The notes under the pieces: model-generated | Seen by the model: the letters and a program-made list of their open reading frames with translations, nothing else | Databases searched by the model: none | Told to the model about the DNA's origin: nothing | Made by a program: the position numbers and the translations under genes | IMG/VR virus record: IMGVR_UViG_3300041964_000148 | Direction: 5' to 3' (one strand) | Source of the DNA: a virus | Taxonomy: Duplodnaviria; Caudoviricetes | Length of the DNA stretch: 64,000 nt | Shown: one piece after another, positions 7,330 to 64,000 of the stretch | Layout: every line of letters starts with the position of its first letter | How positions within the stretch are numbered: the stretch's first letter is position 1

Positions 7330-7619
7330 CCAACACTCAAAAACTGGCGTATCTTGCCGCCAGACAGCTCTATGAAAAGTTAGATGCCGCGTATCCTGGG
7401 CTTCGCTCAGATGAACAGGCTAAGTTTTCTACGCCGGCGTATCTTAAATGGGCGCTAGTTCAGATCTGTTCTTTTGCGGGGTTCTGGGGTGAGGATAAGT
7501 TGCATCGCCATCTAGGGTGGTGTCAAGGCATTAGTAATTGCTTGGAATTGACGACAGTCCAGGAAGAACGCGATCGCATTCGTTCTCTAAAAGCAGAAAT
7601 AGCAGGTGAAAGAAGGTGA
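7326..7619 (+). CDS. Hypothetical protein
   Basis: ATGA-coupled ORF; K.HRHLGWCQG motif. Confidence 0.7.
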   Translation: MTNTQKLAYLAARQLYEKLDAAYPGLRSDEQAKFSTPAYLKWALVQICSFAGFWGEDKLHRHLGWCQGISNCLELTTVQEERDRIRSLKAEIAGERR

Positions 7620-8665
7620 TTGCCAATCACACATTTACTCCCCTCCCCTATGAGATTCTTGAACTTGAACAGTTAGGGCAAACCCTTCCCTTGGGAGTTT
7701 GGATGCCGAATGGGGACAGACTGAGGGATTTTACCCTTGCCCGTTTCATTGGGAGACACGAGTTAATTCTGGGGGAACTGGAAGACGCCAACAGGACACG
7801 CCCAGATAAATATAATCGCGTCATTACCCAGTTTCTGCCGGAAATACTACTAGAGATTGGGGGATACCCACTTAAGGATTTGGCGGCTCAGTTTGGGCTG
7901 AGTGTGAGCAAGTTCATTGCAAGTATGCACTTGGCAGATATTTTAGTCATTGTCCTCAACGTGCGGGCGATCGGAATGAGTCCACTCGTGCCTTTAACTG
8001 GGGAATGCCCCTGTGAGGAGCGGTTTAAGATTCGAGGTGGGGAAAATACGGCGGCGCACGACATGATGAGCGTTGAAGTCCGAGTGCTACCCGATGGGGA
8101 GGATTATCCGCCCATAGTGCGGGTAGAGTTGGCGGATGGAATTCTGCTGGGGGATGTCCGGATTGATGTAGTGCATTTATCCCCCTATCGGTTTGGGCAA
8201 GTGCCAGCAATTACGAACCCAGAGACGGCACTGGATCTAGTATTCTTGGGTCAGTTTACAGACCCACCAATTAAAGGGCAATTATATCGAGGTGCTTCTT
8301 CACGGGATATTAAGAGAATCATTTCTCGGATGTCTCAGTTAATCTATGGTCCGGAAAGAAAAGTGCCGATGGATTGTCCTAGATGTGGTCTTGAATGGGA
8401 CATTCCATTAGCTTATGGAATGGGGTATGAGTACTTTTATTTGTCTCTACTTTCTGCACCTAGAGAAAGCGAAGAAATAGGCAGTACAGCAGAGTACTTT
8501 AACAAAATTGCAAAGTTTTTAACTTTTGGTGAACAGGCTCCTTTCAGTTCTCTTCAAGAGGTGTTAAACTTAACTCCAAGAGATCGTGGTTGGTGGGTAA
8601 AAGAGGTTAGCGAAAGCTATGAAAAACAGCAGAAAGAAATGGAAAAGTCGCAAAAACGTAGATAA
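7616..8665 (+). CDS. Putative baseplate hub/tail assembly protein (T4 gp26-like with gp51-like C-terminus)
   Basis: LHLADILVIVLNVRA..CPC and CPRCG Zn motifs; C-terminal SLQEVLNLTPRDRGWWV resembles gp51/tail chaperone ends. Confidence 0.5.
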   Translation: MIANHTFTPLPYEILELEQLGQTLPLGVWMPNGDRLRDFTLARFIGRHELILGELEDANRTRPDKYNRVITQFLPEILLEIGGYPLKDLAAQFGLSVSKFIASMHLADILVIVLNVRAIGMSPLVPLTGECPCEERFKIRGGENTAAHDMMSVEVRVLPDGEDYPPIVRVELADGILLGDVRIDVVHLSPYRFGQVPAITNPETALDLVFLGQFTDPPIKGQLYRGASSRDIKRIISRMSQLIYGPERKVPMDCPRCGLEWDIPLAYGMGYEYFYLSLLSAPRESEEIGSTAEYFNKIAKFLTFGEQAPFSSLQEVLNLTPRDRGWWVKEVSESYEKQQKEMEKSQKRR

Positions 8666-45056: not shown

Positions 45057-45087
45057 TTAAAACAACCGATACACAAGAGGAAGCAAC

Positions 45088-45332: not shown

Positions 45333-46361
45333 ATGAGCATGAAAAGCGCCCATTCCTGTGAGGAGATTAGGGCAGCACTAGAGGCGGAAGGATATAAGGT
45401 GACTCAGTATCCCTTTAGGGACTTTGCTTCTATCCCCGCTATTTGTTCTAATTCTCATTCTTGTTTAGTGAACTGGTATAGTTTCAAAAAAGGTTGTAGA
45501 TGTCAAGAATGCCGCAGAGAAAGGGTGCGACGACAGGAAGGAGTGCTACCAGGTAAGAAGATGATTCCGTTTGAGGTAGTAAAAGAAGAAATTGAGAGGA
45601 CAGATTACAGGCTAATTACTACGCTGTCCCAGTATAGAGGTGTAGGCAATTACATTGAAATAAAATGTCCGCAAAATCACTTCTATAAGACCAAGTTTGG
45701 AGAATTCCGAAAAGGCAAGCGTTGCAGAAAATGCCGAGTTCTAAATACTCGCGGAGAGAATCACCCTATGTGGAACAAGGATCTTTCTGATGAAGAACGC
45801 TTTCTTCGACGAGATAGTAGGCAGCATGAAGAGTGGCGAAACAAGGTCTTAGAACGAGATAGATGGGTTTGTATTTGCTGTCAAGGACGTACCTCAAAAG
45901 ATAATCCTCTTTGCGCTCATCACCTAGAAAACTACAAAGGCTTCCCGGAGTTGAGGTTTGAGGTTGAAAACGGAGTCACCTTATGCAAAGAATGCCATAA
46001 ACGCTTTCATGGAGTTTATGGTTTAAGAGGAACGAGGTTAACGCAGTTCATAGAATTCAGCCAAACAGAGGGTTTCGACTTTGACCCAGAAAATGCCCTA
46101 ACTTTCAAGGAATACGTTCCTACTTCCCAGCCAGCTCAAACGAAAAGAAGCAAGGTTCTTGAGATTGTCAAAAACAGTGATCGCCCACTTACGGTGAGGC
46201 AGGTAAATGCTGCACTGGGTTTAGATGACAAGGAGATGCTGTACACCAGGCAGATACTTACCGAAGCTTGCCAGTCTGGTTTATTAAATAGATGCCGCCT
46301 CCCTCTAGAAACGTGCAAAGATCGAAAATTTCACTTTTTTCTGAGGGATGTCACCTTATAA
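45333..46361 (+). CDS. HNH endonuclease with Zn-ribbon repeats (possible homing endonuclease)
   Basis: CRCQEC, CPQNH, CRKC; WRNKVLERD..C..C...AHHL...NGVTLCKECHKRFH. Confidence 0.88.
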   Translation: MSMKSAHSCEEIRAALEAEGYKVTQYPFRDFASIPAICSNSHSCLVNWYSFKKGCRCQECRRERVRRQEGVLPGKKMIPFEVVKEEIERTDYRLITTLSQYRGVGNYIEIKCPQNHFYKTKFGEFRKGKRCRKCRVLNTRGENHPMWNKDLSDEERFLRRDSRQHEEWRNKVLERDRWVCICCQGRTSKDNPLCAHHLENYKGFPELRFEVENGVTLCKECHKRFHGVYGLRGTRLTQFIEFSQTEGFDFDPENALTFKEYVPTSQPAQTKRSKVLEIVKNSDRPLTVRQVNAALGLDDKEMLYTRQILTEACQSGLLNRCRLPLETCKDRKFHFFLRDVTL

Positions 46362-46430: not shown

Positions 46431-49400
46431 ATGGATGAACATTATGGACTCTATGCACAATTTTCTCTTCAGATCGACCCCCAAACCAAGACAAATATGG
46501 GGTGGGTCAAGTCGCAACTCGGCGGGATCGAGACTGCCGTAGAGTCGTTATCCAGTAGTCTAGAACGCAATAACATCGCATCCCAGTTTAAAGCGGATGC
46601 CACCCAGACGCAAAGCGCCGCCCGACGCATGACAGGCGCTGTTGATCAGATGGGTGACAAAATGAAGGCGGCAGCGAAACGGATTGACCCCTTGAAGAAG
46701 GAGTTCCGAGCATTACGAGCCGAGGTCAAATTAATAGATTTTGGGGACATTACCAATGATCGCCAATTTAAGAAGGCGAATAATGAAGCCCGGAAATATA
46801 TCACGACCCTCCAGCATTTAGAAACTCAGATTCGGGGGGATACGACGGCTGAACGCGAATTTACCGCCCAACTCAAGCAACAGCAACGGGTGATGGCGAC
46901 ACGCATGGAAATGCAGGAGCATCAACGAGTTGCCGCAAAAGCTGCTGCGCGTGTGGGAGAGTTTCAAGTTGTCCAACAGGCAGGGCAACTTCTGGTAAAC
47001 GACAAACTAGTCGGACAGGCAAAGGATGCGATCAATGTCTTTGCCACCTTTGACGACAAGATGGCTGGGGTCGCCGCTATTACGACAGCGACGGGAGATA
47101 GCCTAGATGCCCTGCGGGAAAAGGCTAAATACTTAGGTGCGACAACCCGTTTCACGGCATCAGAAGCCGCCGATGCGATGTCTTTCTTGGGGATGGCAGG
47201 CTTTAAAACAGAAGCTATCCTTTCTGGGACTCAATCCACCCTCGACTTAGCTTCCGCAGGACAACTAGGATTAGCGGAATCAGCCGATATCGCCTCTAAT
47301 GTCCTAAGTGGTATGCAACTCAAGGTTGAAGACTTGGGTCACGTCACAGACGTAATGGCAAGGACAGCAACTAGCGCCAATACCAACATTCAACAAATGG
47401 GCGTGGCGATGTCTTATGCCGCTCCCAACGCGGCTCTATTTGGGGCGACGCTCGAAGAGACATCGGCTTTGATCGGTGTGATGAGTAACGCTGGTGTACA
47501 AGCAGATAAGGCAGGTACAGCTACCCGTGGTGCCTTCTTGAAGTTAGCTTCTCCCGTAAAGGAAGGGAAAATTGCTCTAGCAGAAATGGGCATGACCCTG
47601 GTTGATTCCTCTGGGAACATGAGGAACGTTATTGAGATATTCAACGAACTCAACGACAAACTCAAAATTAGCCCTGACACCTTAAAGTCTATCCAAGACG
47701 CGGGCGAAGATATTGACTCATTGGGAGAAGTGTCTCAGTCCAAACAAATCCAAGCCTTAAAAGGCATCTTTGGAACAACTGGGATATCCGGTGCATCGGC
47801 GGCACTAGGTCAAATCAAAGAATTAAATCGACTGGCGATCGCAACTCGTGCCAGTTCCACCAACACTGAGCAACTTACTCAATACTTTACAGAACTTCGT
47901 GATATAAAAATGAAGCCGGGGCAGGATATTTTTGCTGCAATTATCGAGCAAACCCCCAACTATACAGAGGCTGTTCGCCAGATTGACGAGGCAAACCTCG
48001 CACTGATGCAGGTAAACCTCAAAACACTTAATAGCTTGGATAGTAGTCGTCTAACAGACTACTTCCAACAAGTTAAAGGGATTAGTACTGCGCCTGGGCA
48101 AAGTCTACTTGCTGCGGTTGTAGAAAATGCTCCTGATACTCAAAGCGCCCTCAACCAAGTCTCAATTGCAATGGAGCAATTGGGGATTCAGGTTAAAGGG
48201 CAAGTTGGATCAGCCCGGTTGATGGCTCAGGTAATGGAAAATAGTCTTCCAGGAAGCTTCCGCGCACTTGAGTCAGCACTAGAGGCAGTAAAGGTTAACT
48301 TTATTGAACCCTTGGTTCCATTAATCAGAGGGATAACAGACACAGCCACTAGGTTTGCTCTATTCCTCGCCAACCTTCCTGCCCCCATCCGTACAACCAT
48401 CAGTGTTGGGGCGGCGCTAACAGTGGGCATGGGAGCGTTGGCGATCGCAATTGGGGCAGCGGGCGTCACACTTTTTGGTTTTCAACAAGCTATGGCAGTA
48501 ACGAACCTGGCGTCTTCCTCACTCGCGGCAGGTTTGATACCCCTTACTGGTTTCTTTGATACAGCACAAAAAGCTATTATTGCAACAAATCCATTAGAAA
48601 CTTTCTTCAAGCGTAACACTCAACTTGCCTGGAGATTTTGAGAAAGCGGCAGCCGGCACATTTGACGAAACCATAGCAGGGATGAAGCTATTAGGACGGC
48701 AGGCAATCCAAACCGGAAAGCCTTCCTCGTCATGTCGAGATCCCTAATGCTCTCCCCGATTGGTTGGGTATTGGTGGATTCTTGCTCCTGAATACAGTGC
48801 TAGAGCAGGTTGTCCCAGGTTTCAACTTGCTGGGAACTGTCCTCGGTGCGATCGCTGCTCCTTTCGGTTTTATATACGGCTTACTTAAGGGCATCATCCA
48901 CTCTTTCCTTGATCTTCTAGGCTTAACTGGATCTGGGGCGATGGGTACGATAGCCCCTGTATTTGGCACCATTACTAATGCAATTGAACTTGCAGCTAAG
49001 TCATTTTCCCTGTTTGCCGAATCAGGGGAGCGGATTGGAGAGCGACTGGGAAAGGCAATTACACTCCCATTTGAATTAGCTGGGCAAGCTATTGGCTCCT
49101 CTTGGGATCGAACAATTAGCTTTATCCGAGGAATTCTACGTCCCTTTGCTGACTTTGTTCAGGGCATTGGGCAAATGTTAGTTGGGTTCCTCGCCGAAGC
49201 CTCACCAGGTCCCACTTTCTGGATACGAAAGAAGTGGGCGATGACAGTACACTTCTTGCAAGGACTATTTGAGCGCCTCAAGGTAGGTGCGATCGCCGTG
49301 GGACAGCAGTTATTAAATGCTTTTACTACTGTTCTCCCTCAACTCTCCAGTGCAATTTCCATTGCGACGGTATTTGCAGAACTATCAGGGATTATTAACC

Positions 49401-52400
49401 CTGTACAAGGGTTAGCGATCGCAATTGGGAACACAATTTTTGGTGGCATTGTGGAGTCGATGGGTAAGTCACTAGATGAAGTGATCCCCATCTTTATTCG
49501 CCGCTTCTCCCTTGTTGCCGCGTTTGGTGGGTTCCTTGCTCAACGATTGAACTTCCTCCAGCCCCTGCAAGCTCAAATTATTGCCGGACTTGCGATTATT
49601 ACAGGGCTTTCGACGTTTTACCTAAAAACGTTCAGTTTCGACATTGCAAGTATCTGGCATACTACTGTTCAAATTATCCAAGGGGACTTACAGGCATTGG
49701 CTGGGGTCGCTAAAAATGTTGGGCTTCTTTTAATTAGTTTTCTCGCCGAAGCCTCACCGGGACCTACCTATTGGATTCGCCGGAAGTGGGCGATGACGAT
49801 AGAATTCCTCTCAAGCTTGTTTAAAAAAATTCGCTCCGCCGCAGTTCTTGTCAACCAAGCTTTCTTAGGGATTGGCGATGTCTCATCAGATCAAGGAATT
49901 GTTGCCCGCCAACAAATCCTTGAAGGTGTCGTTCTTAGCCTAGTCTCAGGCGTCAAGCTATTAGGCTCAGTTGCCACTGGAGTAGATTGGGCAATTACTC
50001 AGATTAACCAGTCGGTGGCTTCAGCCATTGACAATCTTGATCTCTTGGGATTTACCCTCCTCACCCTTTCTTCCCTGCCAATGACCCTTATTGGGCAACT
50101 AGCTCAAGGATTTGAGGCGGTACTTCCCGAACTTGCCCTTTTTGTAGGAGTCGGACTCCCGCGAGCGATCGCCTACGCATTGCCAGGAGCAGTCGCGATT
50201 GCAATGAGTACAGGACTCATTCAAGGGCTAGAGAAGGGCTTTGCCACTTTTGTTGCTGGGATGACGGAACGCTCCAAAGTTGCGTCACAACAATTGTCTC
50301 AGATGTTCGATGCCAACTTGAAGCAGGCAATCAACCGAGGACTATCAGAAGGCGTGACAACGTTTGTCCGAAATCTTCCTAGTGTCTTTCCCGGCATGGA
50401 AGATTACCAGTTTACGTTTGATTTTGATCAAGCGTATGCCGATTATGAAAGTCAACGAGAAGCGCGAGTTCAGGCAATTACCTCTTATTTACAGGAAGTA
50501 GGAGTTGTAGCCAACCAGGTAGGGCAACAGCTTCAAGCAGCACTAGCTCCCTTGCTCTCATTTCGGATTGGGGACATATTCCCCGCTCTTAGCTTCCTTC
50601 CTCCCTTAATCCCCCTAGTTACCGCCATTGTCCCTGCTTTTCAATCTCTATCGCAGGTTGTCCAGTCCCCGGCTGTACAGGGAATTGTTAATTTCTTAAC
50701 CGGAACTGTCCTCCCAACGGCATTACAAACATTGCGTGCGATCGCTTCGACGGTTGGTTTGGTTTTTAATGCTTTTATTTCACTCCCCCTAACTGCTGCA
50801 CTGATCGTAATTACTCGTCCCATTGTTTCTGCCTACCGAGAACTCCTGGCATTTCTCCCGCAGATTCCTGGGATACTCGGACGAGCGATTGTTCAACTTG
50901 CCCGAACAGCCGCTACAGCCGTGGCTAATTTACTTGCGCGAATTCCCTATATTGGGGAGACCGTCTCTCGTGCATTCTTGGGAACCGTAGAATTCTTGAT
51001 TGCAGTCACTCCGGTATATTTCCGACTACTGAGAGGACTATTTGAACGCTATTTCTTGAAGACAATTCGCCCATTACTTACTAGGTTCCAGCAACTATTT
51101 GGTCAAGTTGCCCAAGGGATTGTTTACGCCTTAGAAAGGGGATTTAAACCATTAGGTACACTGCTATTCCGAGCGCTTAATCCAATGAGCGCTTTCAAGC
51201 TAATTGGGACATACATCCGTACCAAGGGCTTCGCCGGACTGTTTAAACCTGGGTTGTTCATGCTCAACCCATTTGACTTATTCTTTGGGGGAATTCCAGG
51301 GATCTCTTGGGCAGTTAGAACAGCCGCGACAGCGTTCTATCGCATACCCTTCCCCGCCGGAATAATCGATAAGAAATCGCGAGAATTATTTCAAATCTTT
51401 GCAGGCTCAGAAGCCTTCCTGGAAGCAGAGCTTAAATCCCGACGACTAGGGCGAACCATGCTCGTCTCGATAGAAGATATCTTGAAAACTCAGCCAGCGA
51501 TTGGTCGCTTCCTAATACAAATCCTCCGAGGGGTGTTAATGATCAACCCTCTCGTCCAAATCATTGGTCGTATTGCCCTAACTACAATGTTTTGGTACTC
51601 GGCATTGAAGCCGATTACACCGGAGATGTTTGAGGCGATCGCTGCGACAAAGATGCTGGGGCTTTCCCTTTCTCCAGTCGCAAGTATCCTCAAGGGAATG
51701 CGCTTCGTGTTTGTTGACATGAACGAAGCCTTTATGAGGTTTGCTCGTGGCATTATCCCTTTCATGCGCGGAGTACAGAACTTCTTTAATGTCTTAGGAA
51801 CAATTACAGGCGTAGTTGTCCACGAGACTGCCGGAATTACAAGTATCCTCTTAAACTTATTTAAAGCCACATTCGGAAACCTAGGCTTACTTGTCGCTAT
51901 TGGTTTTGCTGGCGCGATTGATGCAACGTTAATTGGATTCCGAGCGATCGCCCAACTAGCACGTCTTAAAACTGAGCAGTATGGGGATGCTTTAGTTGCC
52001 CTATTTCAGGGAAATATTGGTCCACTACTTGGACAGATTGCTAGCGACGTAATGGGTGTCGTTGGGTTTATATTCGAGCAAACTATTGTGCGGGTTACGA
52101 AGGTAGCACTTAGCCTTGCCTCTACTGTGGGCGGTGCGATTCGAGCGACATTCCAAGAAATTGTCCGATTTATCCGTGACCCGTGGAATGAAAGTATCCG
52201 CCTCCTTAACTTGCTTGATGCTGCGGTAGATCGCGTACTAGGGAATATTGCAAGGACGATTAACGTCTACATCCAGCAACTTCAGCTCGACAGGCTTGCC
52301 CGTTTCCTCTCTCATTACTGGGTACAGATTGCGGCGATCGCAGACGTTCTCCTCGCCGTATATGGGGTGCTTAATCCCATGCAGGCGGCAATCTCTGGAC

Positions 52401-55400
52401 TGATTGGGTTAGGGTTATTTCTAATTCAGGAGTACCGGACAGGCTTCCAAAACCTAGATGCGTTGATTCAAGGATTGGCGCATCCCATTGAGCTTATTAC
52501 CAATGCCATTAAAGCAATGGTGGCGGCGCTGGGCATCTATATCCCACCGGATCTAACCAACATCATTGCTAATGTTACAGAGCAATTTATTAAATCCCTT
52601 CCGATTATTACAGGGGGAGTATTCCTGATTGCCCTGCTCATCAAACGCAACATCGGCGAGGCATTTAGCACTGTGACAGGTGGGGTAATGAAGATCGTCG
52701 GGGGACTGATGCAGGCGGTAGATGCGACACGAGTTTTTGGGGGTGCAATTTCCGACGTAGCACAAAGTCCTAAGGTACAAGCAAAGGTTGGCTCTCAAGT
52801 CCACAAAGTCCGTCGGCAAGAATCTGTGTTGGGCGTCCGCAATCCATTCGCCTATTCCCAAAATGAAGATCAACAGAGAAGAGCCGTTGCGCTTGGGGAT
52901 GAGCGGGTGGCAAAGAGTCGGGCAGCCCTACGGTATCAGGATGAGATCAACAAGAGCCTACAGAAGATTGTTAAGGAGGAAGAGGAAGAAATTAAGCGGT
53001 TGGCGCGATCGCGCAATGCTCGTGACCAAATCATGGCATTTGGAGGAAAGCTCCAGCGCCCCGATGGCTTCTCTTATGAAGTAGCGCCCTTACTAGAGAA
53101 GAAGAAGGGGCTGCTTGGATTAAATCGGCTGGAGTTGAGCGAGACAGGCAAAGCTGCGGTTGCAGATCAAGCAAGGAGAAGAATTACGTCTCCAGACTCC
53201 GAGTCTGCTATGGGGACTCGAATGCAGGCAGCAAGAAGATCTGGATTAAGAGCCGCATTTGAAAGACACAGTGGAGAGCCTATTCCAGATGACGTTCTCA
53301 GGAAACTAGCGCAGCAGGGAGATTACGGCATCACCAATCTCATGGGAGCCTTCCAGAAGGCGATGGAAAATCTTCATGTTAAAGATTTCCAAGTTAACAA
53401 GTTGTACGTTGCCGAATTTAATCGACCCCAAAATTTCCCAACCCAAACACCTATCGACTCAAACGCTTTTGATATCCAACTCAATAGGTTTCGATCGAAT
53501 CCTATTCATGCCAACAAAGAAATTATCAAAAAAGCTAAAACTGCTTCAGAAATTCAAATTGAGATTGACCAAGCTACTACCACTGGGGATACAAGCTATG
53601 CAAATTTGATTGGCAAGTTTAAACAAAGACTTGAAAAGATGTTTGAGGTTCCTGCTGGGAATTCGGCTATTGTAAGCTCTAATGTTATTGAGGAACACGC
53701 AAAGACGCTATCCGCTAAATTCAATTTAAGTGAAGAGGAATACCAAAAAGCAAGAAAAGCTGTTATCACTGACTTGCTTCAGAGACAGGCAAAATCTATT
53801 GGCAAGACTGTAACTGACTTCAATGATTTTGAAGAGGCGAATATTGAAGCCCTGAAGCAAGCTAACCGAAGAGTTGAAGGTTTTCATCCCATCGCGACAA
53901 ATACTGATGTCTTAGCTCAAGCGGTTCGCAATATAGCAGGGCAAACGCAAGCAGAAGTAGATCAACTTAATCAAACTAGGCGCTCCTTTTTTAGTAGCCT
54001 ATTTGGCTTCACTGGAGTTCCTCAACTCATTGAAAATTTCCAGTACAATCGTCGCCTCTTCCGTCGTAGTCAACAAATTTCGCGACGGGTTGAGGAAATG
54101 GCGAGGCAAGAGTCAAAAGACAAAGCATCAGCACAGGCAGCGCGGCAAAGGGGACTAGAGGCGCTGATGTCTAGATCTGGTTCTGGCTATGACTTCCACA
54201 CTCAATCCGCACAATTTTATGCCTCCAAACAAATCAACGCCCAAGAACAGGCATTCATTGAATCTTGGGTAAAAAATCGTAGCTTCAAAGTTGACATTAC
54301 TCAACACCAAGCTTTCCGCCCAGAAGTTGACAAGATAATTGATAGATTTAAGCAACTTTCAACCAATTTAACTTTAAATACTGTTGATGACGTTAAAAAG
54401 TTCCGACAGACACTTAATGATGTATCTACACAGATACAAACACAACTATCAAAAGACGAACAAACTGCTCTTAAAAAGCTAGAGCAATACCTCCTACACG
54501 GAGCATCTGAAGCTCCGAAAGGAGGTCAACTATCTTTTGGTGAGCGAGATTCTATCCTCGCGGCAATTAACAAAAGTATTGCCAATAATAAAGGAGCCTT
54601 CGGCATAACAGGAGATCACAAGGATATCTCCAAGGCAAGTTTCAAGAAGTTATATGACCAAAATGAGGTCGCCATAAACCGCATCATTTCACAGTTCGCA
54701 GCAACGGGTGAATTCGTTGCCAAAATTGGGGGCAAAAATGAGTATATCGAAGGGGCGTATAAAGAGATAGAGAGAAAGCTTGGACTAGGAGGAGGTGGAA
54801 AGGGAAGTTCACTACGACGGATTCAAGACATTAAGTTCAGTAATACGATTCGTCAACTAGGCATTAATTTTGGACTCTTTGTTCAAAGCATCGAAGAGAA
54901 TGTTGCAGAGTTTCGGGAGCGGATTTATAGAGGACTGGATAGCTTTGAAGGTTGGCTTGAATCCCATCTCCGTTTCCCCAGCCTAGCTACTGGAATTGTT
55001 GATCTCATTCGTCGTCCATTTGAGTTCCTCTCAAACAATATAGAAGCTATCTATACAGCACAGAAGATAAATATCCAAAATATGGCAAATCAGATTAGGG
55101 CTGATTTTGTCGGGTCTAATGTTGTCAGCCGAATTAATAACCTTAATCAGAAATATAAAGAAGCAAGAGAAGCCTCACTTCAGACTATCCTGCAATCCTC
55201 CAGGGATGAACGAATAGCTAAACTGGGTCGAAAGAATGCTTTCCAAGGGGCACAGCTAGGTCCTGTGTGGGAAGAGTTAAAGAAACGGCAACTTAGTCAA
55301 GCTCAGTCCGGTCAAACTGTAAGCGCATTGATGCGTGGGGGAATGAGCGAACAAGCTGTTCGTTCCATGTTAGACAGGGAACTGCGACGACAGGGACTTT

Positions 55401-58400
55401 CTAGGGATCAGGTTACAACCGAGATAGATAAGGTTCTTGCTAGCCTTGGGAATCAAGCTCGCTATTCAGTGGGCGACATCTTGAAGATGCGAGGCATTGA
55501 TGCAACTAAGGTCTCCAAGGCGCTTGAGTCTGCTCTTTCACTAGAAGCTAAGGCAGTAGAGCAAATCCTCAAGAACCCAAACTATACGGCGCGAGCTGTG
55601 GGTCCATTCCAGCTCTTTATGGTTCGTGACATAGTTGGCATTCTAGGCGACACCTTCCGAGGAATTGGAGGTACGATGGTGCGTCTTGTTCGCCCTGTTG
55701 CAAAAGATGTAACAGCGGCATTTGGTAGTAATGTGTTGACTCGTATCGCTAATGTGACCCGTGAAATTAATAAATTCTTAGAGATTGGAGCATCTCGATT
55801 AGAAGTAGGAATTATTAAAGTTGTTGGGCGAAACCCGTTAAGTCGGGCAATTAATCGCTTTGCGAGTAGCCTTGGTGGACAGACAGATCTACTAGCTCGG
55901 TTTTTTGACAAACAAGCTGGTATTGTTGCCGATCAAGCTCCTAAAACCTTTACGGTTCGGATTGTTAATGCCGTTCAGTCCATCTACAAAGCTGTTTCAG
56001 ATAATCTTACAAAAGCTTATAACTACGTTCAAGCTCAAAAAGGCATCCTTCCTGCGATCGCACGGCTTATGGGAGGCGTTCGAGATTTCTTCAAGGGATT
56101 GTTCCGTAACAAAGAACTTGAAAAAGTTCAACAACAGATTAGTCAACAACGAAGGGCGTTTGAATCTAACGATCCAAGAAAGTTCAAGGGTGAAGAGCAG
56201 CAAGCAAGAGCAGCTTCCCGTCGTCGAAGGATAGCCGAACAACTTCCGGCATTAGAAGAGAAACGCAGGCTCTTAGCACGTAATCCAGTCCAGAAAATGG
56301 CTGATTATGTAAGCTCTAAAAAGCTTCCAGAGAGAGGATTTAATCGGATAGGACAAACCTTTGAAGGGATGAGTAGTCGCCTCTCTGAGTTCGCCACGGT
56401 TCTCCGTGATAAGCGAGTAAAAGCAGAGGAAAAGCGCCGAGGCGGGGTTTACGATCCAGACTTATATGATCGCGTTTCGCCAAGAGGTCAAAGACGCGGG
56501 GCAAGTGGGCTGGGACAAACGATGTCGCCCCAAAACAACGACCAAATGGGAGGCGTCCGACCAAGAGAAGGGATGCGATACATAGGGCGAGGGATTGTAG
56601 GTGCAACACAAGACATCCTGCCCTTGACCACCAAGATATTTTCCGACTTGCTCTCGGCTGGAGCTAAAACAAGCGATCGCCTGGGACAATTCTTCCGAGG
56701 AGCGGCGCTAAAAGTTCAAGGGGCATGGTGGCAATCGGCGACCGACATCATGGGACGTAGTTGGCGAGCAATGGTTACAGCAGCAAAAGGAGTCGGAAGC
56801 TTCATTATTGCCCGATTAAATCATGGAAGTGCCGACGTAACGGCAGCAGCCTGGGATCGCACTCAGCATTCAGTTTCCCAGGATATGCAACAGATGGCTG
56901 AAACTGCTCAAGCCACTGGACAACATATTAGCGGAAGCATGGAGCAATCGGCAACCCGCTCCGTTGGGTTCTTTTCTCAACTAGGAAACAGCATTGGCAG
57001 AGTCGGCAAAGCCGGGATGGCGATTGGAGGAGCAGTTACAGGCATAGGTTTCGGAGCGCAGACAGCCGTATACTCCCTCTCTACAATGGGATTTGTTAGC
57101 GAGGATACATCCGAGAAACTTCGCAAATTCTTTGAAATCTTCACTCTTTTTGGTGCCGTAGGCGGAATAGTTACTCCGCTCTTTGCCGCAGTAGCATCTT
57201 CTTTGGGAGCCATTGGCGCGATCGCCGGAACAGTCGGCACAGCAATTGTCGGGGTTGGCGGTGCGATCGCTTCTGTTGTTGGACTAGGAAGTGTCGCCTT
57301 CGCCCCAATTATTTTAGGTATTGCAGCCGTTGGGCTTGCATTTGCTGGATTGTACTTAGCGATTAAATCCAACTTCCTCGGAATTGGCAATATACTTACT
57401 ACCCCTATCCATTGGATCGAGGCAGCATGGCAGGGATTCGTAGATCGATTTGGGGCAAGGTTGATGCCAATCATTCAACCTGCATTGAATGTCGCACAGG
57501 GTTTAATCAACGCATTGAACCATAACCCCACCCTCCGCATTCCAGAAGCTTGGGAGGCTATGAAGGAAAGAATCGGGGCTGTATTTAACTGGATGTCTTC
57601 AACAGCCGGGGCAATTGGCAATGCGATCGTTGGATTCTTTAGCCCTATCGGTAAATTATTCTCACACGGCGGAGTACGCGAACAGCCAGTAATTCAACCC
57701 CGCGAAAATAGCATTCAACAACTTGGACATAAAGTTCAAGAATCAACCTCAGTAGTCACTGAAAGAGCAAGTGGCTTAGGTCGTGCGGTTAATGATCTAG
57801 CTGCCAAAACCCTTGTTGATATCCTGGCAAAAATAACATTACTTGTCGGAGGAATAGTTCTATTTCGCCAACAAGTTGGGAAAGATATTGCCAATCTGGG
57901 CGCTCAGGTCGTATCGAGCCGCAGTATGCCTTCTTCTTTGATTAATGCGATTGGCGTAAGTGTTTTGGCTAAAACTTTTGCTACCTCACTTGGTATAGCC
58001 AAGATCGTTAGGGGCGTCACATCTCTAGGTAAAATATCCGAAGATCTGCTTAAGCCAATCCAGAAGTTAGCTTCAAACATAGGACTGAAAGCTAATACGA
58101 CAGGAAGACGACCCCAAACCGCACTAGAGTTAACATCCGGAACACTCAAGGGACTAGGAAAACTAGGGGACAAACTTCGACCTATTGCTGGATACATACC
58201 AGCGATTGCACTCGCTGCACCTGATGTAGCAATGTTAGGAAGCGGACTTATTGGATTAAGCTATGCCTTTAGCGAATTTCCTGTCTTCCTGTTAAAGTTC
58301 AAGTCACTTCTTATGTTGGCTGGTGGCTTTGCCTCTGCGATCTCTGGGGTTGTGCTCTTACTGGAATTGGCAACCAAACAGACAAATGTACTAGGAGTGC

Positions 58401-61400
58401 TTGTTGGTAGTCTAGTATTCGTTGTTAAAGCTTTTGCCGGAGTATTCAAGGGCTTTCAGAAAGCTTTTGCTGAAATTTCAAACCCCCTGAAAGCCTACTA
58501 CGATGACTTTATCGCCACAGTCCAAAGGATGGGTAAAGCGGGCGATGATTTTGGACAAAAACTTGGATACGGGCTAGCTCAAGCTCTAATTTATCCTTTA
58601 AACTTTATTTACCAAGCTTGGCAGGGTTTAGTAGACTGGTTCGCACGACTCCCTTTGGTATCACACGCACTAAATATAGGGCAAGGGTTGGTAAATGCTC
58701 TGAACCACGGCGCGGCGGACGTTACAGCCGATGCTTGGGAGTCTACTGAGCAGCGAGTAGGAGGAGTTTTTGGTTCCTTGGCGTCAGCCGCAAGTGGTAT
58801 CGGCAATACAATCGCTGGGGCTTTCAAGCCAAGACCTCAAAAGAATAAAGTATTGCAACCCCAAAGTCAAGTAGAAGAGAACCCGGAGTCTCTTGGCTCT
58901 GGAATCATTAAGAATGCAACAGTAGCCATAGCATTTCTGCGCGACAAAATTACAGCTCTTATTAAGTCAATCGGGCTATTAAATACAAAGGTTGACTATC
59001 AGTCTCAATTGCTAAAACATCAGCTTCGACTACAACAAGTCAATTTAGTTCGTTCTAGTTGGGGTATTTTAACGAATCGAGAGAGGAATAGTAACTTATC
59101 TGGACGCGCCTCCAATTTGCCGTGGGTGCAAAGGCGTCAAGCTCAAGTGCGAGGAATTGGTGGGCTTAAAGAGGCGGCAGAAAACCCGCGTCTGCGGCGA
59201 CTTAAGCAGTTAGGAGGACTGGTTGGGGAGTTAACTGGACTAAAAGGGGGAGCGATCGCTTCCTTGCTAACAGGTATTACCTCGATCAGTGGGGCGTTAG
59301 GTTTACTTGTCCTAGCATTCTCTACTGACTTTTTAGAAATCCGAACTAAGACCGTTAAGCTTGCCCAATCTATGCAGGGTGCATTCAAGGGGGCAATTGA
59401 CTGGATTACAGGAGCTTGGACTGGCTTTAGCAATTGGTTTGGAAAGATGCCTTTAGTTCGCCAAGCCCTTGCAATTGCTCAAGGTTTAATCAACTCATTG
59501 AACCATTTCCCAACGGTCAAGATTCCAGAAGCGTGGGAAGAAGCAGGCAGGCGGATTGTCGGACAATTCCATTATTGGCTAAATGTTGCTAAATGGGTAG
59601 GGGTTGCCATTGCGGGCACCCTGATTACGGCATTAACTGCAATTGCTGCGGCGACAAATCCGGTAATGGCTGCAATCACGGGATTTACTTTAGGAATAAG
59701 CGCACTAGCTTTCTTTTCCTCAAAGATACTAGCAGGATTTGGTGCTGTTCTTGACTGGTTTGGGAATCGCATTCTTGCCTTAGATGTCAAGTTTGCTTCG
59801 GTAAACATAGGTGCTATAGCAGGACCATTGTTTGGCTTAAGCACCATATTCGCCACCGTAACTACCGCAGGAACCCTACTGGCAGCGGTTCTAACAGCAC
59901 CTGTATTTGCCCCTTGGATTGCTGGAGCTACAGCACTAGGAGGAGCGATCGCCGGAGCCTTGTTCTTGTGGCAGCGTTTCAGAAAGCAATCTGAGATACC
60001 TCCGTCCGTAGAACAACCGACTCCCACCCCAGGATTTAGAGAACGAGTGGGGCAGAAGGCTCAGGGAGTCCGAGATGCGATTGTTGAGCAAGGTGTAAGG
60101 GCTAAAAATGCTGGAATAGGTGCGGCTAATGCAGTTGTGGAGCAAGCTACGAAGGTTAAAGATGCTGGAGTAGGTGCGGCTAATACAGTGGCTCAACAAT
60201 ACCAGTTGTTCGCTTCGGCTGCGGCTGACGTAAGCTCTATTCGTCAAAGCTTACAGGCGAGTTCTTCTCTAGGAGATCTAAACAGCAGCTATCTGTCTAA
60301 AATTGTTGATTTAATTCAAAATCTTGTTGATTTTAACAAGCCGAAACCTAGTCCGGAGCCACCTCCAATGGTTACAGGACAGTCGCTTATCGTTGGCTCC
60401 GGAGAAGTTAATAACCCGAATGCTATCCAGAACAAAGTAGGGGGGATCGGTGCGGCTATTCAAGATACTGTTTTGGGTCAAAACGCTTTTGGAAAACTTC
60501 TTTTAAGTCCTATTGCCAGAGCGCCGTTAGATGCAATGGGATTAAAAGATACCCAGAAACGGATCACAAAGGAAAGAGAGCGTGAGCGAATCAGGCAATC
60601 ATTAGGACAACAGAAAACTGGTGTCCAATCCTCACTACCTGGTCCCCTGGGATTATTTAGCAAAAAGGATGAGTTTCAAGAAGCAATTCAATCCCAACTT
60701 CAGGGGCAAGAACTGAAATTAGCCGAAAAAGTAATTAGTGGAGCGCAAAGCTCTAGCGCCCTTGTCCGAGATCAATACAAGGGTTTGGTCACGACGATCA
60801 CTCAAAACGGACAAGAGCAAGTTGTCCTAAATGAAAAAGGGCAAAATTACTTAGAAGGACAACTTGCAGGACTCATTAAGCAGCAAACAGGATCGTTCTC
60901 TGAAAAAGAATTGGCAGTTACGGCTCAGAAAGCGGGATTCAAAGGAACTCCCGAACAATTAAGGCAAGCTGCCTTGGAGGGACTAAGAGGGAAAGATAAG
61001 GATCAGTTGTCCGCTCTAGAGCAAGCCGCAGGCACACTTCCTGGGACGAAGGTTGATTACCAGGAACTTGCTAGCGACAGTTTGTCACGGTTAGTTGAAA
61101 TCGCCCAGAACATCTTCACTTGTGTTGACTACATCGCTGCCCTTCTACAACCAAAATCCAAGGTTCCTAAGTCTCTAGCTTCAGGGGCATCAATTCCCGT
61201 TGATTTCCAACCTACTCCACCTTCTCCTCCAGCAGAGCCAAGTCTTGTATCTAAGGCGGGAGATGCAATCAATAACACGTTATCCTCTCTCGGTGTCCAC
61301 GCCAAGACGCCACTCAGTACCGGGGCAGCAGGAGCTGAATCAATAACAGAGGTTCTAACTCGACTTCGTAATTCTCTGTCAACGACCAAAGAGCCAGTAG

Positions 61401-64000
61401 AATACACCTCTATTCAAAAACGTATTGGGCAGTTGTTCGCTGGCAAGTTTGAGCAACCCAAAGGAGTCCAGGCTCGCCTTTCAGATCAAGTAGGCAAGCC
61501 CCAGCCCACTGCCCAAGGCATAGATGCTGACCCATCAAAGGCATTGGCGTTTGCCGCTCAAAATACGACACAAGCTTGGAATAATACCACTACGGCGATC
61601 GCGTCCAACATTGATTCCTTAGTTAGTACGTCTGCCGACCAAGGTTACGAATTACAAAAAGCAGTATCCGAGGGTTCTCCAGGACCTACTTATTGGATTC
61701 GAGAACACTGGAGTAAAACAGTCGAGGCGATTAAGGGATGGATGCATGGATTAGGCAGTACATCCCAGAAGGTTGGGGAAGCAGTAACCCAATCCCTAAC
61801 CCCCCAGGAGATGGTTCAAAAGGCGAAAGAAGGTATCCAACAAGTCGGGAAAAGTTTGCTTATTTTGGGGGGAGACATTGGAGACTTTATTCGTAGGGCA
61901 ACAGTCGCGACACTGACTCTTAACTTCTTCGAGCTAGGAGATGCCGTTGGCGACCTTGGTGGAAATTTTGGCTACTTTGCTCAAGGAGTAATGACTGGCT
62001 TTGGGCAGATGGGCAAGAGTGCGATCGCCTTCTGGTTGATGGCAATGAGTTGGGCAACGCCCTTCTTTGTAATCCTAGGAGGAGTTACTTTTGTCACTGC
62101 CGTCTTGGTTGCGAACTTCTTGGGGCTACGGACTATTCTTGGTGGAGTGATCCGGATTGGAATTGGGGCAGGACAAATCCTGATTGCGGTCTTGGGAGGC
62201 TTGGGGAATACGGTTAAGTCCCTTGGCAAGATTGCCCTTGGTGTATTTAAAGCACTCAGGGGAGACTTCTCACTACTTGACGAGGGAATTGCTCAACTAA
62301 AAGCCAGTTTCACCCAAATGAAAGCGGGCGTAGTTCGGGGGCTTAAGACGATTGGGCGAGGCATTCGGCAGATCTTTACTGGGATTGATCAAGGAATCCA
62401 GCAGGTATTCCCCTCGTTTAAGGGTGTTATCCACTACGTTCAGGCTATTTCCTCGGCATTAAAAAATCCAGAAGCTGCCGCACGGATGCTGGCGCAAGGG
62501 ATTGTCCGAGTTGCGCGACAAATTGGAGACACCATCCAAACTATTCCTGGATTCGTAGCGCGTGGGGTACAGAAGGCGTTTAAGTGGGTGAAGGACGGTG
62601 CTAATGCCGTACTCAAAAAAGGACAGCAGGTTGTTGCTTACTTCAGCGGGTTGTCGTTTTCAGAGGTAGGCGATCGCTTCGTCACGGTTCTCCGTGATGT
62701 GGGAAATGCCATTGTTCGCCTACCTGGAACATTGACGGGGGCGGTGGAGCGGATGATACCCGCCCTCAAGGCTCCTTTCAACTATCTACGAAGATTTATT
62801 GGGACTTTTATCAATGAGATGAAAGCCTTGCTCCCACCGGGAATAGCTGCATCGATAGTGCTGGGATTTGAACGTGCGGCTGGGTGGATCAAGGCAATCT
62901 TTAGCCGGATTAAATCAGGATTGCGCGGCTTTGTAACTCAGCTTGGCTTTGAAGAGCAGTTTAATGCTGTCACCCAAGGTATCCGAACACGATGGCAGCA
63001 GTTAGTTGATTTTGCAACTAAGACCAATTTATTTGGTTCTATTCCAAAAGATATCAAGCAGTTTTCTGCTGCTTTTGTAAGGGGCGTAGACTTAGCTCAA
63101 GCCATTTGGACTCGATTTACAAATTGGCTGGCATCTACGACCTTATTCCCTAAGATTTGGACGCAACTTGAGACGTTGGGAAGTCGATTCACTCAATTTG
63201 CCGAGAAATTGGGCGAAAAATGGGAGGGGGTTAAAGGGGAATTTGCGACTGGGAATATGTTCGCTGGCTTCTTTGAGAGGATGAGGCGTCTAGGGACTCG
63301 TTTTCAGGAATTCGTTATCAAGCTAGAAGAGAATTGGCGTGGATTTGCTCGAATTATTCCAGGTATCCCCATCTTCCAATCTCTATTCACCGAGCTTTAT
63401 GTGTTTGGCGATCGCTTTAGTGGGCTTGCCAACTTCCTGGAGCAGCAATGGCGAAAGTTGGCGCAGTTTTTAGGTACAACGTCACTAGTTGGAGGTGCGA
63501 TCTCGACCATTGAGTTTTTGGGGCGAAAGTTCACTGAGGTTATTGGGTTTGTCAAGGGAGCCTGGGAACCTTTCACCGAGTTTTTAAACAGCAGTGACTT
63601 CTTCTCAAAGGCATTCGAGCAGCTTCGCAAATTTGGGAATTTTATCCCTCAACTAGGTGAAACGACGAGGCAGGAATTCTCTAAAGCCAGGGAATTTATT
63701 GAAAATGTATTCCAGGATGTCCCTGGAGCAGTTAATCGCGCAGTTGAGCGCATTAGCAATGCTTGGCGAGGATTTACAGACCAATTCCAGTCTATTTTGT
63801 CCCCGATTGTTGATTTTGCAAAGAAAGTTGCTCAGTGGCTAATAGACGCATTGAACCATTCACCAACGGTCCGCATCCCAGAGGCGTGGGAAAAGGCAGT
63901 TGCTTGGATTCGAGGGACTATAGAATCTTTGGTTGCCCCAGCTCAAGGGGTAGCTGAAAAACTAACTGGAATATTCCAGTCTACAACAAATCGTATCTCT
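46431..64000 (+). CDS. Giant tape measure protein (more than 5,850 codons, runs off the window; frameshifts at about 48600-48780)
   Basis: TP901-type core (LREKAKYLGATTRFTASEAADAM..LGMAG...AGT..RG) in 46431-48640. Frame 2 reads as amphipathic, Trp-spaced protein at every spot checked from about 48780 to 64000, and the ORF track reports no stop-terminated ORF in that frame. Confidence 0.85.

What the first reader, a model, noticed from the sequence alone, without database searches (positions are those of the whole stretch)
46431..64000. Tape measure gene of more than 5,850 codons, largely hidden from the ORF track
After a short frameshifted patch, frame 2 appears open for more than 15 kb to the window end. 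At the usual roughly 0.15 nm per residue, a pure ruler would imply a tail of at least about 0.85 micrometre, comparable to or longer than the longest described tails (Thermus P23-45/P74-26, about 5,000 aa). A gp25-like gene in the window hints at a contractile tail, for which such length would be exceptional. Inference: it may be an adaptation to cross a thick cyanobacterial sheath, or much of the protein may be non-ruler cargo.
Basis: partly seen in the sequence, partly recalled or inferred. Interest (0 to 1): 0.8.

Follow-up and report, generated by a model that had tools for sequence, protein, structure and literature searches.

The report
Giant tape measure gene, contractile cyanophage
This is the tail tape-measure gene of a roughly 245-kb contractile-tailed cyanobacterial phage; its intact form is 7,312 amino acids, far longer than the longest described (5,002), so the tail could be about 1 micrometre long, although in this contig the gene is broken by three single-base indels.

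Summary
ORF 46431-48641 (736 aa) and ORF 48764-64000+ (5,079 codons, open at the window end) are two pieces of one gene. The piece that leaves the window is 6,532 aa in the database and ends about 4.36 kb past the window. A sister contig carries the intact 7,312-aa gene. It is 100% identical over all 6,532 downstream residues and reads straight through the junction. The window differs there by three 1-nt indels (extra T at 48630; one A missing at 48717-20; one T missing at 48762-66), giving frame path 3>1>3>2.

The protein is a tape measure protein (TMP). It has an N-terminal PF10145 domain, TMP-family matches along its length, 28 membrane-like helices and a family-wide C-terminal motif. It belongs to a family of 4,940-8,170-aa proteins on 180-245-kb cyanobacterial replicons, including Nostoc sp. 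C052 'plasmid' pC052_F (portal, terminase, sheath, ParAB).

The contractile hint holds. The window has a gp25-like gene. A 1,004-aa protein on a contig of the same length (245,281 bp) folds as a contractile sheath.

Tail length is untested: about 1.1 micrometres if all of the protein is ruler.

This scan noted the same gene in an overlapping window (e1-5710682).

The parts
46431..48641 (+). N-terminal piece of the tape measure gene (736 aa, frame 3). The last three codons and the TGA at 48639-41 are out of frame because of the extra T at 48630.
   Evidence: PF10145, aa 229-448, E 9e-45; 23 TMP PHROGs, best 3.6e-79. 96% identical to aa 5-738 of the intact P0023.
47115..47774 (+). PhageMin_Tail (PF10145) core domain of TP901-type tape measure proteins
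   Evidence: residues 229-448 of P0002; tblastn finds 1,138 phage TMP records at about 30% identity.
48630..48766 (+). Frameshifted patch with three single-base indels and no substitutions relative to the intact relatives: +T at 48630, -A in the A-run 48717-20, -T at 48762-66
   Evidence: The broken form is on one contig only; the intact form with an identical downstream part is on three.
48764..64000 (+). Main body of the tape measure gene (frame 2). It runs off the window and is 6,532 aa in all, ending at about 68362.
   Evidence: P0004, 100% identical, 6,532 aa; TMP PHROG matches at aa 15-357, 2800-2963, 4190-5470; 28 hydrophobic helices; 71% helix in aa 1301-2500; pN/pS 0.17.
57704..61303 (+). 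Module of about 1,200 aa (P0004 aa ~2981-4180) that is missing from relatives about 60% identical to this protein. It carries two of the repeated LNH..IPEAWE motifs.
   Evidence: family alignment; motif positions.
4438..4968 (-). gp25-like baseplate / sheath-initiator candidate, a marker of contractile tails
   Evidence: structure TM 0.68/0.71 to a cluster that is 98% PF04965; feature score 0.91-0.92. 53% identical to pC052_F 66296-66763. No Pfam hit by sequence.
7616..8665 (+). Conserved 349-aa protein, a weak baseplate-hub candidate
   Evidence: 44% identical to pC052_F 77830-78855. That homologue hits phrog_150 'baseplate hub' only at E 0.0013.
45333..46361 (+). HNH endonuclease gene directly upstream of the tape measure start; part of a strain-variable cassette
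   Evidence: 14 HNH PHROGs. Found only on 1.2-3.1-kb contigs in several assemblies, 100% identical to window 44363-46983.

Best explanation
The region is the tail tape measure protein (TMP) gene of a roughly 245-kb jumbo cyanophage, or phage-plasmid, with a contractile tail.

Shown:
- The two ORFs are one gene. Its intact form in sister genomes is 7,312 aa.
- It has the N-terminal PF10145 domain, further TMP-type modules along its length, many membrane-like helices, and a C-terminal motif shared by the whole family.
- Relatives of 4,940-8,170 aa sit on 180-245-kb cyanobacterial replicons that also encode a sheath of about 1,000 aa, a gp6-like baseplate wedge, a portal and a terminase.

Inferred mechanism: as in T4 and phage G, a few copies lie extended in the tube lumen and stop tube and sheath polymerisation, so they set tail length. 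On infection the protein is ejected, and its hydrophobic segments help form the conduit through the envelope.

At the 1.5-1.6 Å per residue seen for T4 and phage G, 7,312 aa would give a tail of about 1.1 micrometres. I put about 0.45 on most of the length acting as ruler (tail of at least 0.8 micrometre).

The break in this contig is three 1-nt indels, private to this contig. I judge it a consensus or assembly error (about 0.55) or a very recent lesion in one variant (about 0.4). It is not a designed split.
For: One gene, intact elsewhere:
- P0023 (7,312 aa, 3 contigs, longest 242,445 bp) is 100% identical to all 6,532 aa of the window's downstream ORF and 96% identical to the upstream ORF. 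It reads through the junction.
- P0005 and the Nostoc C052 homologue (8,170 aa, a single annotated CDS) are also contiguous.

TMP identity:
- PF10145 at E 9e-45.
- TMP PHROGs in the N-terminal piece and at four further places along the long piece, best phrog_1272 at 2.3e-25.
- 28 strongly hydrophobic 19-mers.
- 71% helix in the AlphaFold model of aa 1301-2500.
- A C-terminal motif conserved in all 15 family members.

Family:
- 15 giant relatives.
- 35 representatives at the 50% identity level, 18 of them longer than 5,002 aa.

Contractile phage context:
- pC052_F has an annotated portal, terminase large subunit and ParAB. It also has a 1,001-aa protein hitting phrog_23 'tail sheath' at 5e-18 and a gp6-like wedge.
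- Its homologue P0148 (1,004 aa) lies on a 245,281-bp contig, the same length as the contig of the window's own ORF.
- The P0148 model (pLDDT 87) matches only contractile sheaths at the top of a PDB search: 9ezm at 3e-15, T4, cyanophage A-1(L), P1, pyocin, AFP, T6SS.
- A TMP and a sheath share a contig length of 242,772, 194,977, 188,553 and 179,900 bp, and 52,275 against 52,274 bp in a fifth case.
- A gp25-like gene lies in the window.

Cyanobacterial host: HIP1 (GCGATCGC) occurs 77 times against 0.6 expected.

Ruler constant in myoviruses: T4 has 590 aa for 925 Å; phage G has 2,893 aa for 4,500 Å (PMC8570332).
Against: - No virion, tail image or proteome exists for any member, so tail length is pure extrapolation.
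- The AlphaFold model of aa 1301-2500 shows many short helices with pLDDT 70-90 and a small sheet. This looks more like folded helical domains than one long coiled coil.
- Relatives about 60% identical differ by blocks of 600-1,200 aa.
- Some relatives carry J-domain or lipase-like inserts, so part of the length may be cargo rather than ruler.
- No tube protein and no frameshifted chaperone pair was recognised next to the gene.
- Placing the sheath on the window's own replicon rests on matching contig length, not on sequence I could read.
- The gene as it stands in this contig is broken. The flanking 2.6 kb is identical to contigs that appear to be short-read assemblies, so a real lesion cannot be dismissed.
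Confidence: 0.78

Rival explanations
1. It is a true TMP homologue, but only part of it measures the tail. The rest is ejected material: membrane-conduit segments and helical or enzymatic cargo delivered into the host. The tail would then be long but within the known range, at most about 0.5 micrometre. This would resemble the RNA polymerase fused to the P23-45 TMP.
For: - Block indels of 600-1,200 aa between relatives.
- J-domains embedded in P0003, P0006, P0008 and P0009, and a lipase-like GxSxG segment in the C052 protein.
- The AlphaFold model of aa 1301-2500 has compact-looking helical segments at pLDDT 70-90.
- 28 membrane-like helices spread along the protein.
- Precedent of a TMP-fused enzyme (PMC10770324).
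Against: - In the window's own protein no enzymatic or known globular domain was found by Pfam, PDB sequence search or Foldseek.
- TMP-type modules recur along the whole length.
- In T4 and phage G the whole TMP length scales with the tail, and the phage G TMP includes enzymatic domains.
Confidence: 0.4
2. The three indels are real. This copy is an inactivated tape measure gene in a defective or plasmid-resident variant of the phage that no longer makes tails.
For: - Window 44363-46983 is 100% identical, without indels, to several independent contigs, some named in MEGAHIT k141 style. Local assembly quality therefore looks high.
- The relative pC052_F persists as a circular replicon with ParAB in a pure culture. 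Plasmid-like residence, where tail genes could decay, is therefore plausible.
Against: - There are no substitutions at all in the 75 codons of the patch.
- The 6,532 downstream codons are 100% identical to the intact allele, so there is no sign of decay.
- The broken form is on one contig, the intact form on three.
- Two of the three indels are length changes in short homopolymers, the usual form of consensus errors.
Confidence: 0.4
3. It is not a virion protein. It is a giant plasmid-encoded membrane or surface protein that merely carries a TMP-like domain.
For: - The closest named record is annotated as a plasmid and typed non-mobilizable.
- Most of the middle of the protein has no family assignment.
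Against: - That 'plasmid' encodes a portal, terminase, sheath and baseplate wedge.
- Both ends of the protein and several internal stretches are TMP-like.
- A giant TMP and a sheath occur together on six replicons.
Confidence: 0.03
4. The split is a designed feature: two genes, or programmed recoding, that produces a short and a long product.
For: Tail chaperone genes next to TMPs often use programmed frameshifts (general knowledge; PMC8570332).
Against: - Three shifts of mixed sign (+1, -1, -1) in 137 nt match no known recoding signal.
- Every relative examined is contiguous there, with identical amino acids.
Confidence: 0.02

Closest known systems
Thermus phage P23-45 / P74-26 tape measure protein gp96 (5,002 aa; PMC10770324; Minakhin 2008, as cited there)
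   Same: A giant TMP with membrane segments. It is the record holder among described TMPs and sets an extraordinarily long tail. It shows that a TMP can carry extra function (a virion RNA polymerase).
   Different: - Those phages are siphoviruses with about 80-kb genomes (my recollection). This lineage has a contractile sheath and 180-245-kb replicons.
- This protein is 46% longer (7,312 aa; 8,170 aa in Nostoc C052).
- No RNA polymerase or metallopeptidase domain was found here.
- No detectable sequence relationship beyond general TMP features.
Bacillus phage G tape measure protein gp183 (2,893 aa; contractile tail 450 nm; PMC8570332)
   Same: A jumbo myovirus in which TMP length and tail length scale as in T4, at about 1.56 Å per residue.
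   Different: - The present TMP is 2.5 times longer.
- Phage G has C-terminal glucosaminidase and M23 domains and a sheath-chaperone-TMP-baseplate gene order. Here the tail genes are scattered, and no lytic domain or chaperone pair was found.
TP901-type tape measure proteins (Pfam PF10145 PhageMin_Tail)
   Same: The N-terminal piece matches the full Pfam model (1-201 of 201, E 9e-45). It also matches 1,138 phage TMP genes of both siphoviruses and myoviruses at about 30% identity.
   Different: The TMP PHROG profiles it matches are about 600-2,200 positions long. Here some 6,500 further residues follow the domain.
Nostoc sp. C052 plasmid pC052_F, WP_179070682.1 'phage tail tape measure protein' (8,170 aa)
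   Same: A homologue over the whole length (46% identity over the first 1,300 aa of the long piece). It shares the end motifs. Its replicon shares the gp25-like gene, a hub candidate, dndB and other genes with the window.
   Different: It is 858 aa longer. It carries a J-domain and a lipase-like segment that the window's protein lacks. It is deposited as a plasmid, and I found no description of it as a phage.
Microcoleus jumbo myophages My-WqHQDG / My-ElHQDG (bioRxiv 10.1101/2023.04.12.536658)
   Same: Genomes of more than 200 kb recovered from metagenomes, with sheath and baseplate genes, predicted to infect filamentous cyanobacteria.
   Different: Relatedness could not be tested because no sequence was at hand. 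The preprint does not mention a tape measure protein.

Membership tests
Phage tail tape measure protein (TP901 type, PF10145) | PhageMin_Tail core domain near the N-terminus | tested here: met
   PF10145, E 9.2e-45, 153 bits (cut-off 33.2), model 1-201 of 201, aa 229-448 of the 736-aa piece.
Phage tail tape measure protein (TP901 type, PF10145) | TMP-type sequence beyond the N-terminal domain | tested here: met
   phrog_1272 (1.3e-13 at aa 15-357; 2.3e-25 at aa ~4906-5143), phrog_4200 1.1e-21, phrog_305 9.8e-15, phrog_991 2.7e-07. All are annotated as tail length tape measure protein.
Phage tail tape measure protein (TP901 type, PF10145) | Predominantly alpha-helical with hydrophobic or transmembrane segments | tested here: met
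   855 of 1,200 modelled residues are helix and about 2% strand (only aa 1301-2500 were modelled; mean pLDDT 64.5); 28 19-mers with mean Kyte-Doolittle hydropathy of at least 1.9.
Phage tail tape measure protein (TP901 type, PF10145) | Encoded on a tailed-phage genome together with tube/sheath and baseplate genes | tested here: met
   - pC052_F carries the TMP with a sheath, wedge, portal and terminase.
- The sheath P0148 is on a contig of the window contig's length.
- A gp25-like gene lies in the window.
Phage tail tape measure protein (TP901 type, PF10145) | Protein length determines tail length (about 1.5 Å per residue) | not testable with these tools
   Needs electron microscopy of virions and in-frame deletion or duplication mutants.
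Phage tail tape measure protein (TP901 type, PF10145) | Single uninterrupted reading frame | tested here: not met
   In this contig three 1-nt indels split the gene. The frame is uninterrupted in P0023, P0005 and the C052 homologue.
Contractile-tailed phage (myovirus morphotype) | Contractile sheath protein | tested here: met
   The AlphaFold model of P0148 has pLDDT 87.3 and pTM 0.73. Foldseek against the PDB gives sheath chains of phages, tailocins, eCIS and T6SS as every top-ranked hit, with a best E of 3.3e-15. The C052 homologue hits phrog_23 at 5e-18.
Contractile-tailed phage (myovirus morphotype) | gp25-like sheath initiator / baseplate wedge | tested here: inconclusive
   The Atlas model of window 4438-4968(-) matches a cluster that is 98% PF04965 at TM 0.68/0.71. 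There is no Pfam hit even at E 5. I made no fold of my own. The gp6-like wedge on a sister contig hits phrog_6 at 5.3e-13.
Contractile-tailed phage (myovirus morphotype) | Tail tube protein | tested here: inconclusive
   The 182-aa gene directly after the sheath gene is the positional candidate, but it has no PHROG hit.
Phage-plasmid | Phage structural genes plus plasmid partition genes on one circular extrachromosomal replicon | tested here: met
   This holds for pC052_F only: circular, 223,442 bp, ParA/ParB at 152467-154183, portal, terminase, sheath. It was not tested for the window's replicon, most of which I could not read.

The most novel reading that the evidence does not exclude
A widespread clade of 180-250-kb phages and phage-plasmids of filamentous cyanobacteria builds contractile tails of about 1.0-1.3 micrometres. 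These would be the longest tails of any known virus, about 2.5 times the longest known contractile tail. Their length would be measured by single 6,300-8,170-aa tape measure proteins, perhaps so that the phage can reach cells through thick sheaths or slime.
Probability: 0.4. Interest if true: 0.85.

Novelty: new variant of a known kind. Interest (0 to 1): 0.7.

Why it matters
Tape measure proteins give the clearest rule linking gene length to the size of a molecular machine. That rule has been followed up to 5,002 aa in a non-contractile tail and 2,893 aa (450 nm) in a contractile one. A family of 6,300-8,170-aa TMPs in phages that also encode a contractile sheath pushes the rule 1.5-2.8 times beyond its tested range.

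Either outcome is informative. If the rule holds, these phages build micrometre-long contractile tails. That raises questions of assembly fidelity, stiffness and contraction mechanics, and of how phages reach sheathed filamentous cyanobacteria. If it fails, a large part of a TMP serves another purpose, such as an ejected conduit or cargo like the J-domains seen in relatives.

One member sits in a culturable strain (Nostoc sp. C052, pC052_F, filed as a plasmid), so the question can be tested directly. The finding also shows that a large clade of cyanobacterial jumbo phages is present in public data, partly filed as plasmids, without a description that I could find.

Tried and rejected
- No whole genome is held for the window, so the part of the replicon beyond 64000 could not be read.
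- Megablast of the region against phages and plasmids found nothing.
- Scans of genome contigs, viral contigs and metagenome contigs with the C-terminus, and an exact 44-mer in viral contigs, found no relatives. One alignment was too divergent to search with.
- The look-up of encoding contigs refuses proteins over 5,000 aa. The 736-aa piece is not on record. The loci fetched are not in records that the genome search holds. The junction therefore could not be compared at the nucleotide level with the intact sister contigs, only through their proteins.
- PF04984 found nothing on pC052_F; the sheath was found through PHROGs and folding instead.
- Pfam gave nothing for the gp25-like ORF, even at E 5.
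- PDB sequence search of the whole long piece gave no hit.
- Foldseek of the aa 1301-2500 model found only generic helical-repeat proteins, best E 0.0095.
- Self-BLAST of the long piece, as I filtered it, listed no long internal repeats. Weaker internal matches of 30-38% identity appear when a relative is compared, so the repeats are short motif modules.
- No overlapping frameshifted chaperone pair lies upstream.
- Rfam and tRNA scans of the window were empty.
- The genes directly downstream of the TMP in a 94% relative (380, 270, 473, 59 and 662 aa) have no informative PHROG match.
- Literature searches found no description of TMPs above 5,002 aa or of these replicons as phages. The library is incomplete, so this does not prove there is none.
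- Rejected readings: designed split or recoding; homopolymer phase variation (runs of 3-4 bases are too short); non-phage plasmid protein.

Full report
**Observation**

The window holds an ATG-started ORF at 46431-48641 (736 aa, frame 3). It is followed by an ORF from 48764 to the window end (5,079 codons, frame 2, no stop).

Translating all three frames across 48400-48900 shows that the reading frame of a single protein wanders. An intact close relative has 75 residues across the junction. All 75 are encoded letter for letter in the window, along this path:
- frame 3 to 48629
- frame 1 for 48631-48720
- frame 3 again for 48717-48764
- frame 2 from 48764

The window therefore carries an extra T at 48630, lacks one A in the A-run at 48717-48720, and lacks one T in GGTTGGG at 48762-48766. 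There is no substitution in the patch. A nucleotide alignment with the more distant Nostoc homologue shows the same three indels.

The long frame is real coding sequence. Against a 96%-identical relative (L007), pN/pS is 0.17 over 1,152 codons, and the only length differences are in-frame.

**Full extent of the gene**

The protein database holds the window's own downstream ORF as a 6,532-aa protein on a 245,281-bp contig (P0004). The gene therefore ends at about window coordinate 68362, and the two pieces span 21,932 nt.

P0023 is a 7,312-aa protein seen on three contigs, the longest 242,445 bp. It is 100% identical to all 6,532 residues of P0004 and 96% identical to the 736-aa piece, and it runs straight through the junction. 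Of the 29 substitutions in the N-terminal piece, 19 fall in residues 500-665.

Two further relatives are also contiguous: P0005 (about 96% identical) and the 8,170-aa Nostoc sp. C052 protein.

The separately called 6,532-aa form exists on one contig only. The break is therefore private to this contig.

Window 44363-46983 is 100% identical, with no indels, to several independent contigs, some named in MEGAHIT k141 style. I therefore cannot simply call the assembly error-prone. Even so, three 1-nt indels, no substitutions and an untouched 19.6-kb downstream frame fit a local consensus error or a very recent lesion. They do not fit an old pseudogene or a designed split.

**What the protein is**

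- The N-terminal piece matches Pfam PF10145 (PhageMin_Tail) over the whole model at E 9e-45. It also matches 23 PHROG families, most of them annotated as tail length tape measure protein.
- tblastn finds 1,138 phage records, from both siphoviruses and myoviruses, at about 30% identity. None covers more than 62% of the piece.
- The long piece matches TMP PHROGs at residues 15-357, 2800-2963 and about 4190-5470, with a best E of 2.3e-25.
- It has 28 strongly hydrophobic 19-residue segments in clusters.
- It carries short repeated motifs: SPGPT(Y/F)WIR three times inside the window and once more beyond it, and L(I/V)(N/D)(A/S)LNH followed by IPEAWE or a variant four times.
- Its C-terminus is shared by every family member: a GG-L/I-V...GEFVVNA-type stretch and a conserved last 60 residues or so.
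- No enzymatic or known globular domain was found in the window's protein by Pfam, PDB sequence search or Foldseek of a modelled 1,200-residue segment.
- That model (residues 1301-2500, 14-sequence alignment) is 71% helix. Half of its residues have pLDDT of 70 or more. It contains many helices of 10-20 residues and one small sheet, so it looks more like a string of helical domains than one continuous coiled coil.

**Family**

A word-indexed search found 15 proteins of 4,940-7,596 aa. The exhaustive HMMER search of 50% representatives found 35 hits, 18 of them longer than 5,002 aa.

A family alignment shows a conserved backbone interrupted by large blocks that come and go:
- A module of about 1,200 aa (window 57704-61303) is absent from relatives about 60% identical to this protein.
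- Other members have 600-730 extra residues elsewhere.

Several relatives carry a J-domain (PF00226, with the HPD motif). The Nostoc protein also has a lipase-like GxSxG stretch. The window's protein has neither.

**Genomic context**

The window is cyanobacterial in style: the HIP1 octamer occurs 77 times against 0.6 expected.

The only named complete relative is Nostoc sp. C052 'plasmid' pC052_F (223,442 bp, circular, from a pure culture). Its annotation lists:
- a phage portal, a terminase large subunit, nrdJ and a sigma factor
- ParA/ParB
- many IS and TnpB elements

PHROG scans add a 1,001-aa tail sheath (phrog_23, 5e-18), a gp6-like baseplate wedge (6e-9) and a weak major-head hit next to the portal. 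It therefore has the gene content of a jumbo phage-plasmid.

The window shares several genes with it, at 26-53% identity: the gp25-like ORF, a 349-aa protein whose homologue weakly matches a baseplate hub, dndB, and others.

**Is the tail contractile?**

It has no Pfam hit, even at a lax threshold. However, the Atlas model of exactly this protein matches a cluster that is 98% PF04965 at TM 0.68/0.71. Its nearest feature neighbours are viral clusters that carry GPW_gp25 or Sheath_initiator domains.

The C052 sheath has more than 100 homologue clusters of about 1,000 aa, on contigs up to 252 kb. Named sources are Allocoleopsis, Crinalium, Arthrospira and unclassified cyanobacterial MAGs.

One member, P0148 (1,004 aa), lies on a 245,281-bp contig. 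That is the length recorded for the contig of the window's own ORF. Folded with a 61-sequence alignment, it gives pLDDT 87.3. Every top-ranked PDB match is a contractile sheath: Halogeometricum (3e-15), T4, cyanophage A-1(L), Klebsiella KP1, P1, R-pyocin, AFP, PVC and T6SS.

On sister contigs the sheath gene is followed by a 182-aa gene, a positional tube candidate with no family hit. It lies near a gp6-like wedge (5e-13) and a portal (8.5e-27).

A giant TMP and a sheath share a contig length of 242,772, 194,977, 188,553 and 179,900 bp, and 52,275 against 52,274 bp in a fifth case. Both are also on pC052_F.

The lineage therefore has a contractile tail. For the window's own replicon this rests on the contig-length match and on the gp25-like gene.

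**How it most likely works**

From established TMP biology, a few copies of the TMP extend through the tube from baseplate to neck and set the point at which tube and sheath stop growing. On infection the TMP leaves the tube and helps form the channel through the envelope (PMC8570332, PMC10770324).

In contractile tails the constant is about 1.57 Å per residue in both T4 (590 aa, 925 Å) and phage G (2,893 aa, 4,500 Å). Applied here, it gives about 1.1 micrometres for 7,312 aa and about 1.3 micrometres for the Nostoc protein.

This is extrapolation. The modular indels, the embedded J-domain and lipase-like inserts in relatives, and the domain-like AlphaFold model leave real room for a large non-ruler share. 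I put about 0.45 on a tail of at least 0.8 micrometre and about 0.4 on a mainly non-ruler excess. That it is a TMP of a contractile-tailed cyanophage I hold at about 0.9.

**Comparison with what is known**

- The longest described TMP is gp96 of Thermus phages P23-45 and P74-26: 5,002 aa, siphoviruses, 'longest known tails', with an N-terminal RNA polymerase.
- The longest contractile tail I could document is phage G's 450 nm.
- Among cyanomyoviruses the longest is S-CREM2, at about 418 nm.
- A preprint describes Microcoleus jumbo myophages of more than 200 kb recovered from metagenomes, without mentioning a tape measure. I could not test whether they are related.
- I found no paper describing TMPs of this size or treating pC052_F as a phage.
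- The same gene was noted by this scan in an overlapping window (e1-5710682).

**Verdict**

The tape-measure reading and the contractile-tail hint are supported. The break is three private single-base indels, not a feature of the gene. Tail length and the sheath-crossing idea remain untested, but they can be tested directly in Nostoc sp. C052.

Noticed in passing
window 44363-46983: The cassette with a 131-aa ORF, a 62-aa ORF, the HNH endonuclease gene and the first ~550 nt of the tape measure gene is found, 100% identical, only on contigs of 1.2-3.1 kb in at least seven samples. The long sister contigs evidently carry another variant. This looks like a strain-variable homing-endonuclease insertion that breaks assemblies right at the start of the TMP gene.
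   Followed up: partly
window 46394-46425: A GC-rich hairpin (AGCCGCTCAC ... GTGAGCGGCT) followed by a T-run ends 5 nt before the tape measure ATG. It is a terminator-like element directly ahead of a very long gene.
   Followed up: no
window 47928-48425 (aa 500-665 of the N-terminal piece): 19 of the 29 amino-acid differences from the otherwise near-identical sister protein P0023 cluster here, while the following 6,532 residues are identical. This is a local hypervariable stretch in the TMP.
   Followed up: no
L001:17682-42194 (pC052_F TMP), about aa 7264-7310 and aa 4240-4300; also P0006, P0008, P0009: TMPs of relatives carry an embedded DnaJ J-domain with the HPD motif (PF00226, E 2e-7). The Nostoc one also has a lipase-like GxSxG segment (Abhydrolase_1, E 0.0017, below the cut-off). 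A J-domain inside an ejected tail protein could recruit host Hsp70. The window's protein lacks both.
   Followed up: partly
pC052_F (NZ_CP040278.1), whole record; loci L001-L006: It is deposited and typed as a non-mobilizable plasmid, but it encodes a portal, terminase, contractile sheath, baseplate wedge, an 8,170-aa TMP, nrdJ, a sigma factor and ParA/ParB. This is the gene content of a 223-kb jumbo phage-plasmid in a cultured Nostoc.
   Followed up: partly
window 28953-30113 (-) and 40673-41833 (-): There are two 386-aa paralogues with the RRXRR domain (PF14239, E about 1e-45). pC052_F has an annotated IscB, so these may be IscB-like RNA-guided nucleases or their relatives.
   Followed up: no
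window 22303-25759 (-), 39398-40399 (+): dndB (E 8e-74) sits next to an SMC/AAA_23 ATPase (dndD-like), and a PAPS-reductase-like gene lies elsewhere. These are parts of a DNA phosphorothioation system scattered on a phage-like genome, already followed up by another agent of this scan.
   Followed up: no
window, whole: HIP1 (GCGATCGC) occurs 77 times against 0.6 expected from shuffles. This is a strong sign of long residence in a HIP1-rich cyanobacterial host.
   Followed up: yes
window 26553-28595: About 2 kb has no ORF of 90 aa or more on either strand and no Rfam or tRNA match.
   Followed up: no
L007:7964-13658 (94% relative, directly downstream of the TMP stop): Five co-oriented genes (380, 270, 473, 59 and 662 aa) follow the TMP. 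None has an informative family. The 662-aa one weakly resembles a TMP family (phrog_167, E 4e-4).
   Followed up: partly
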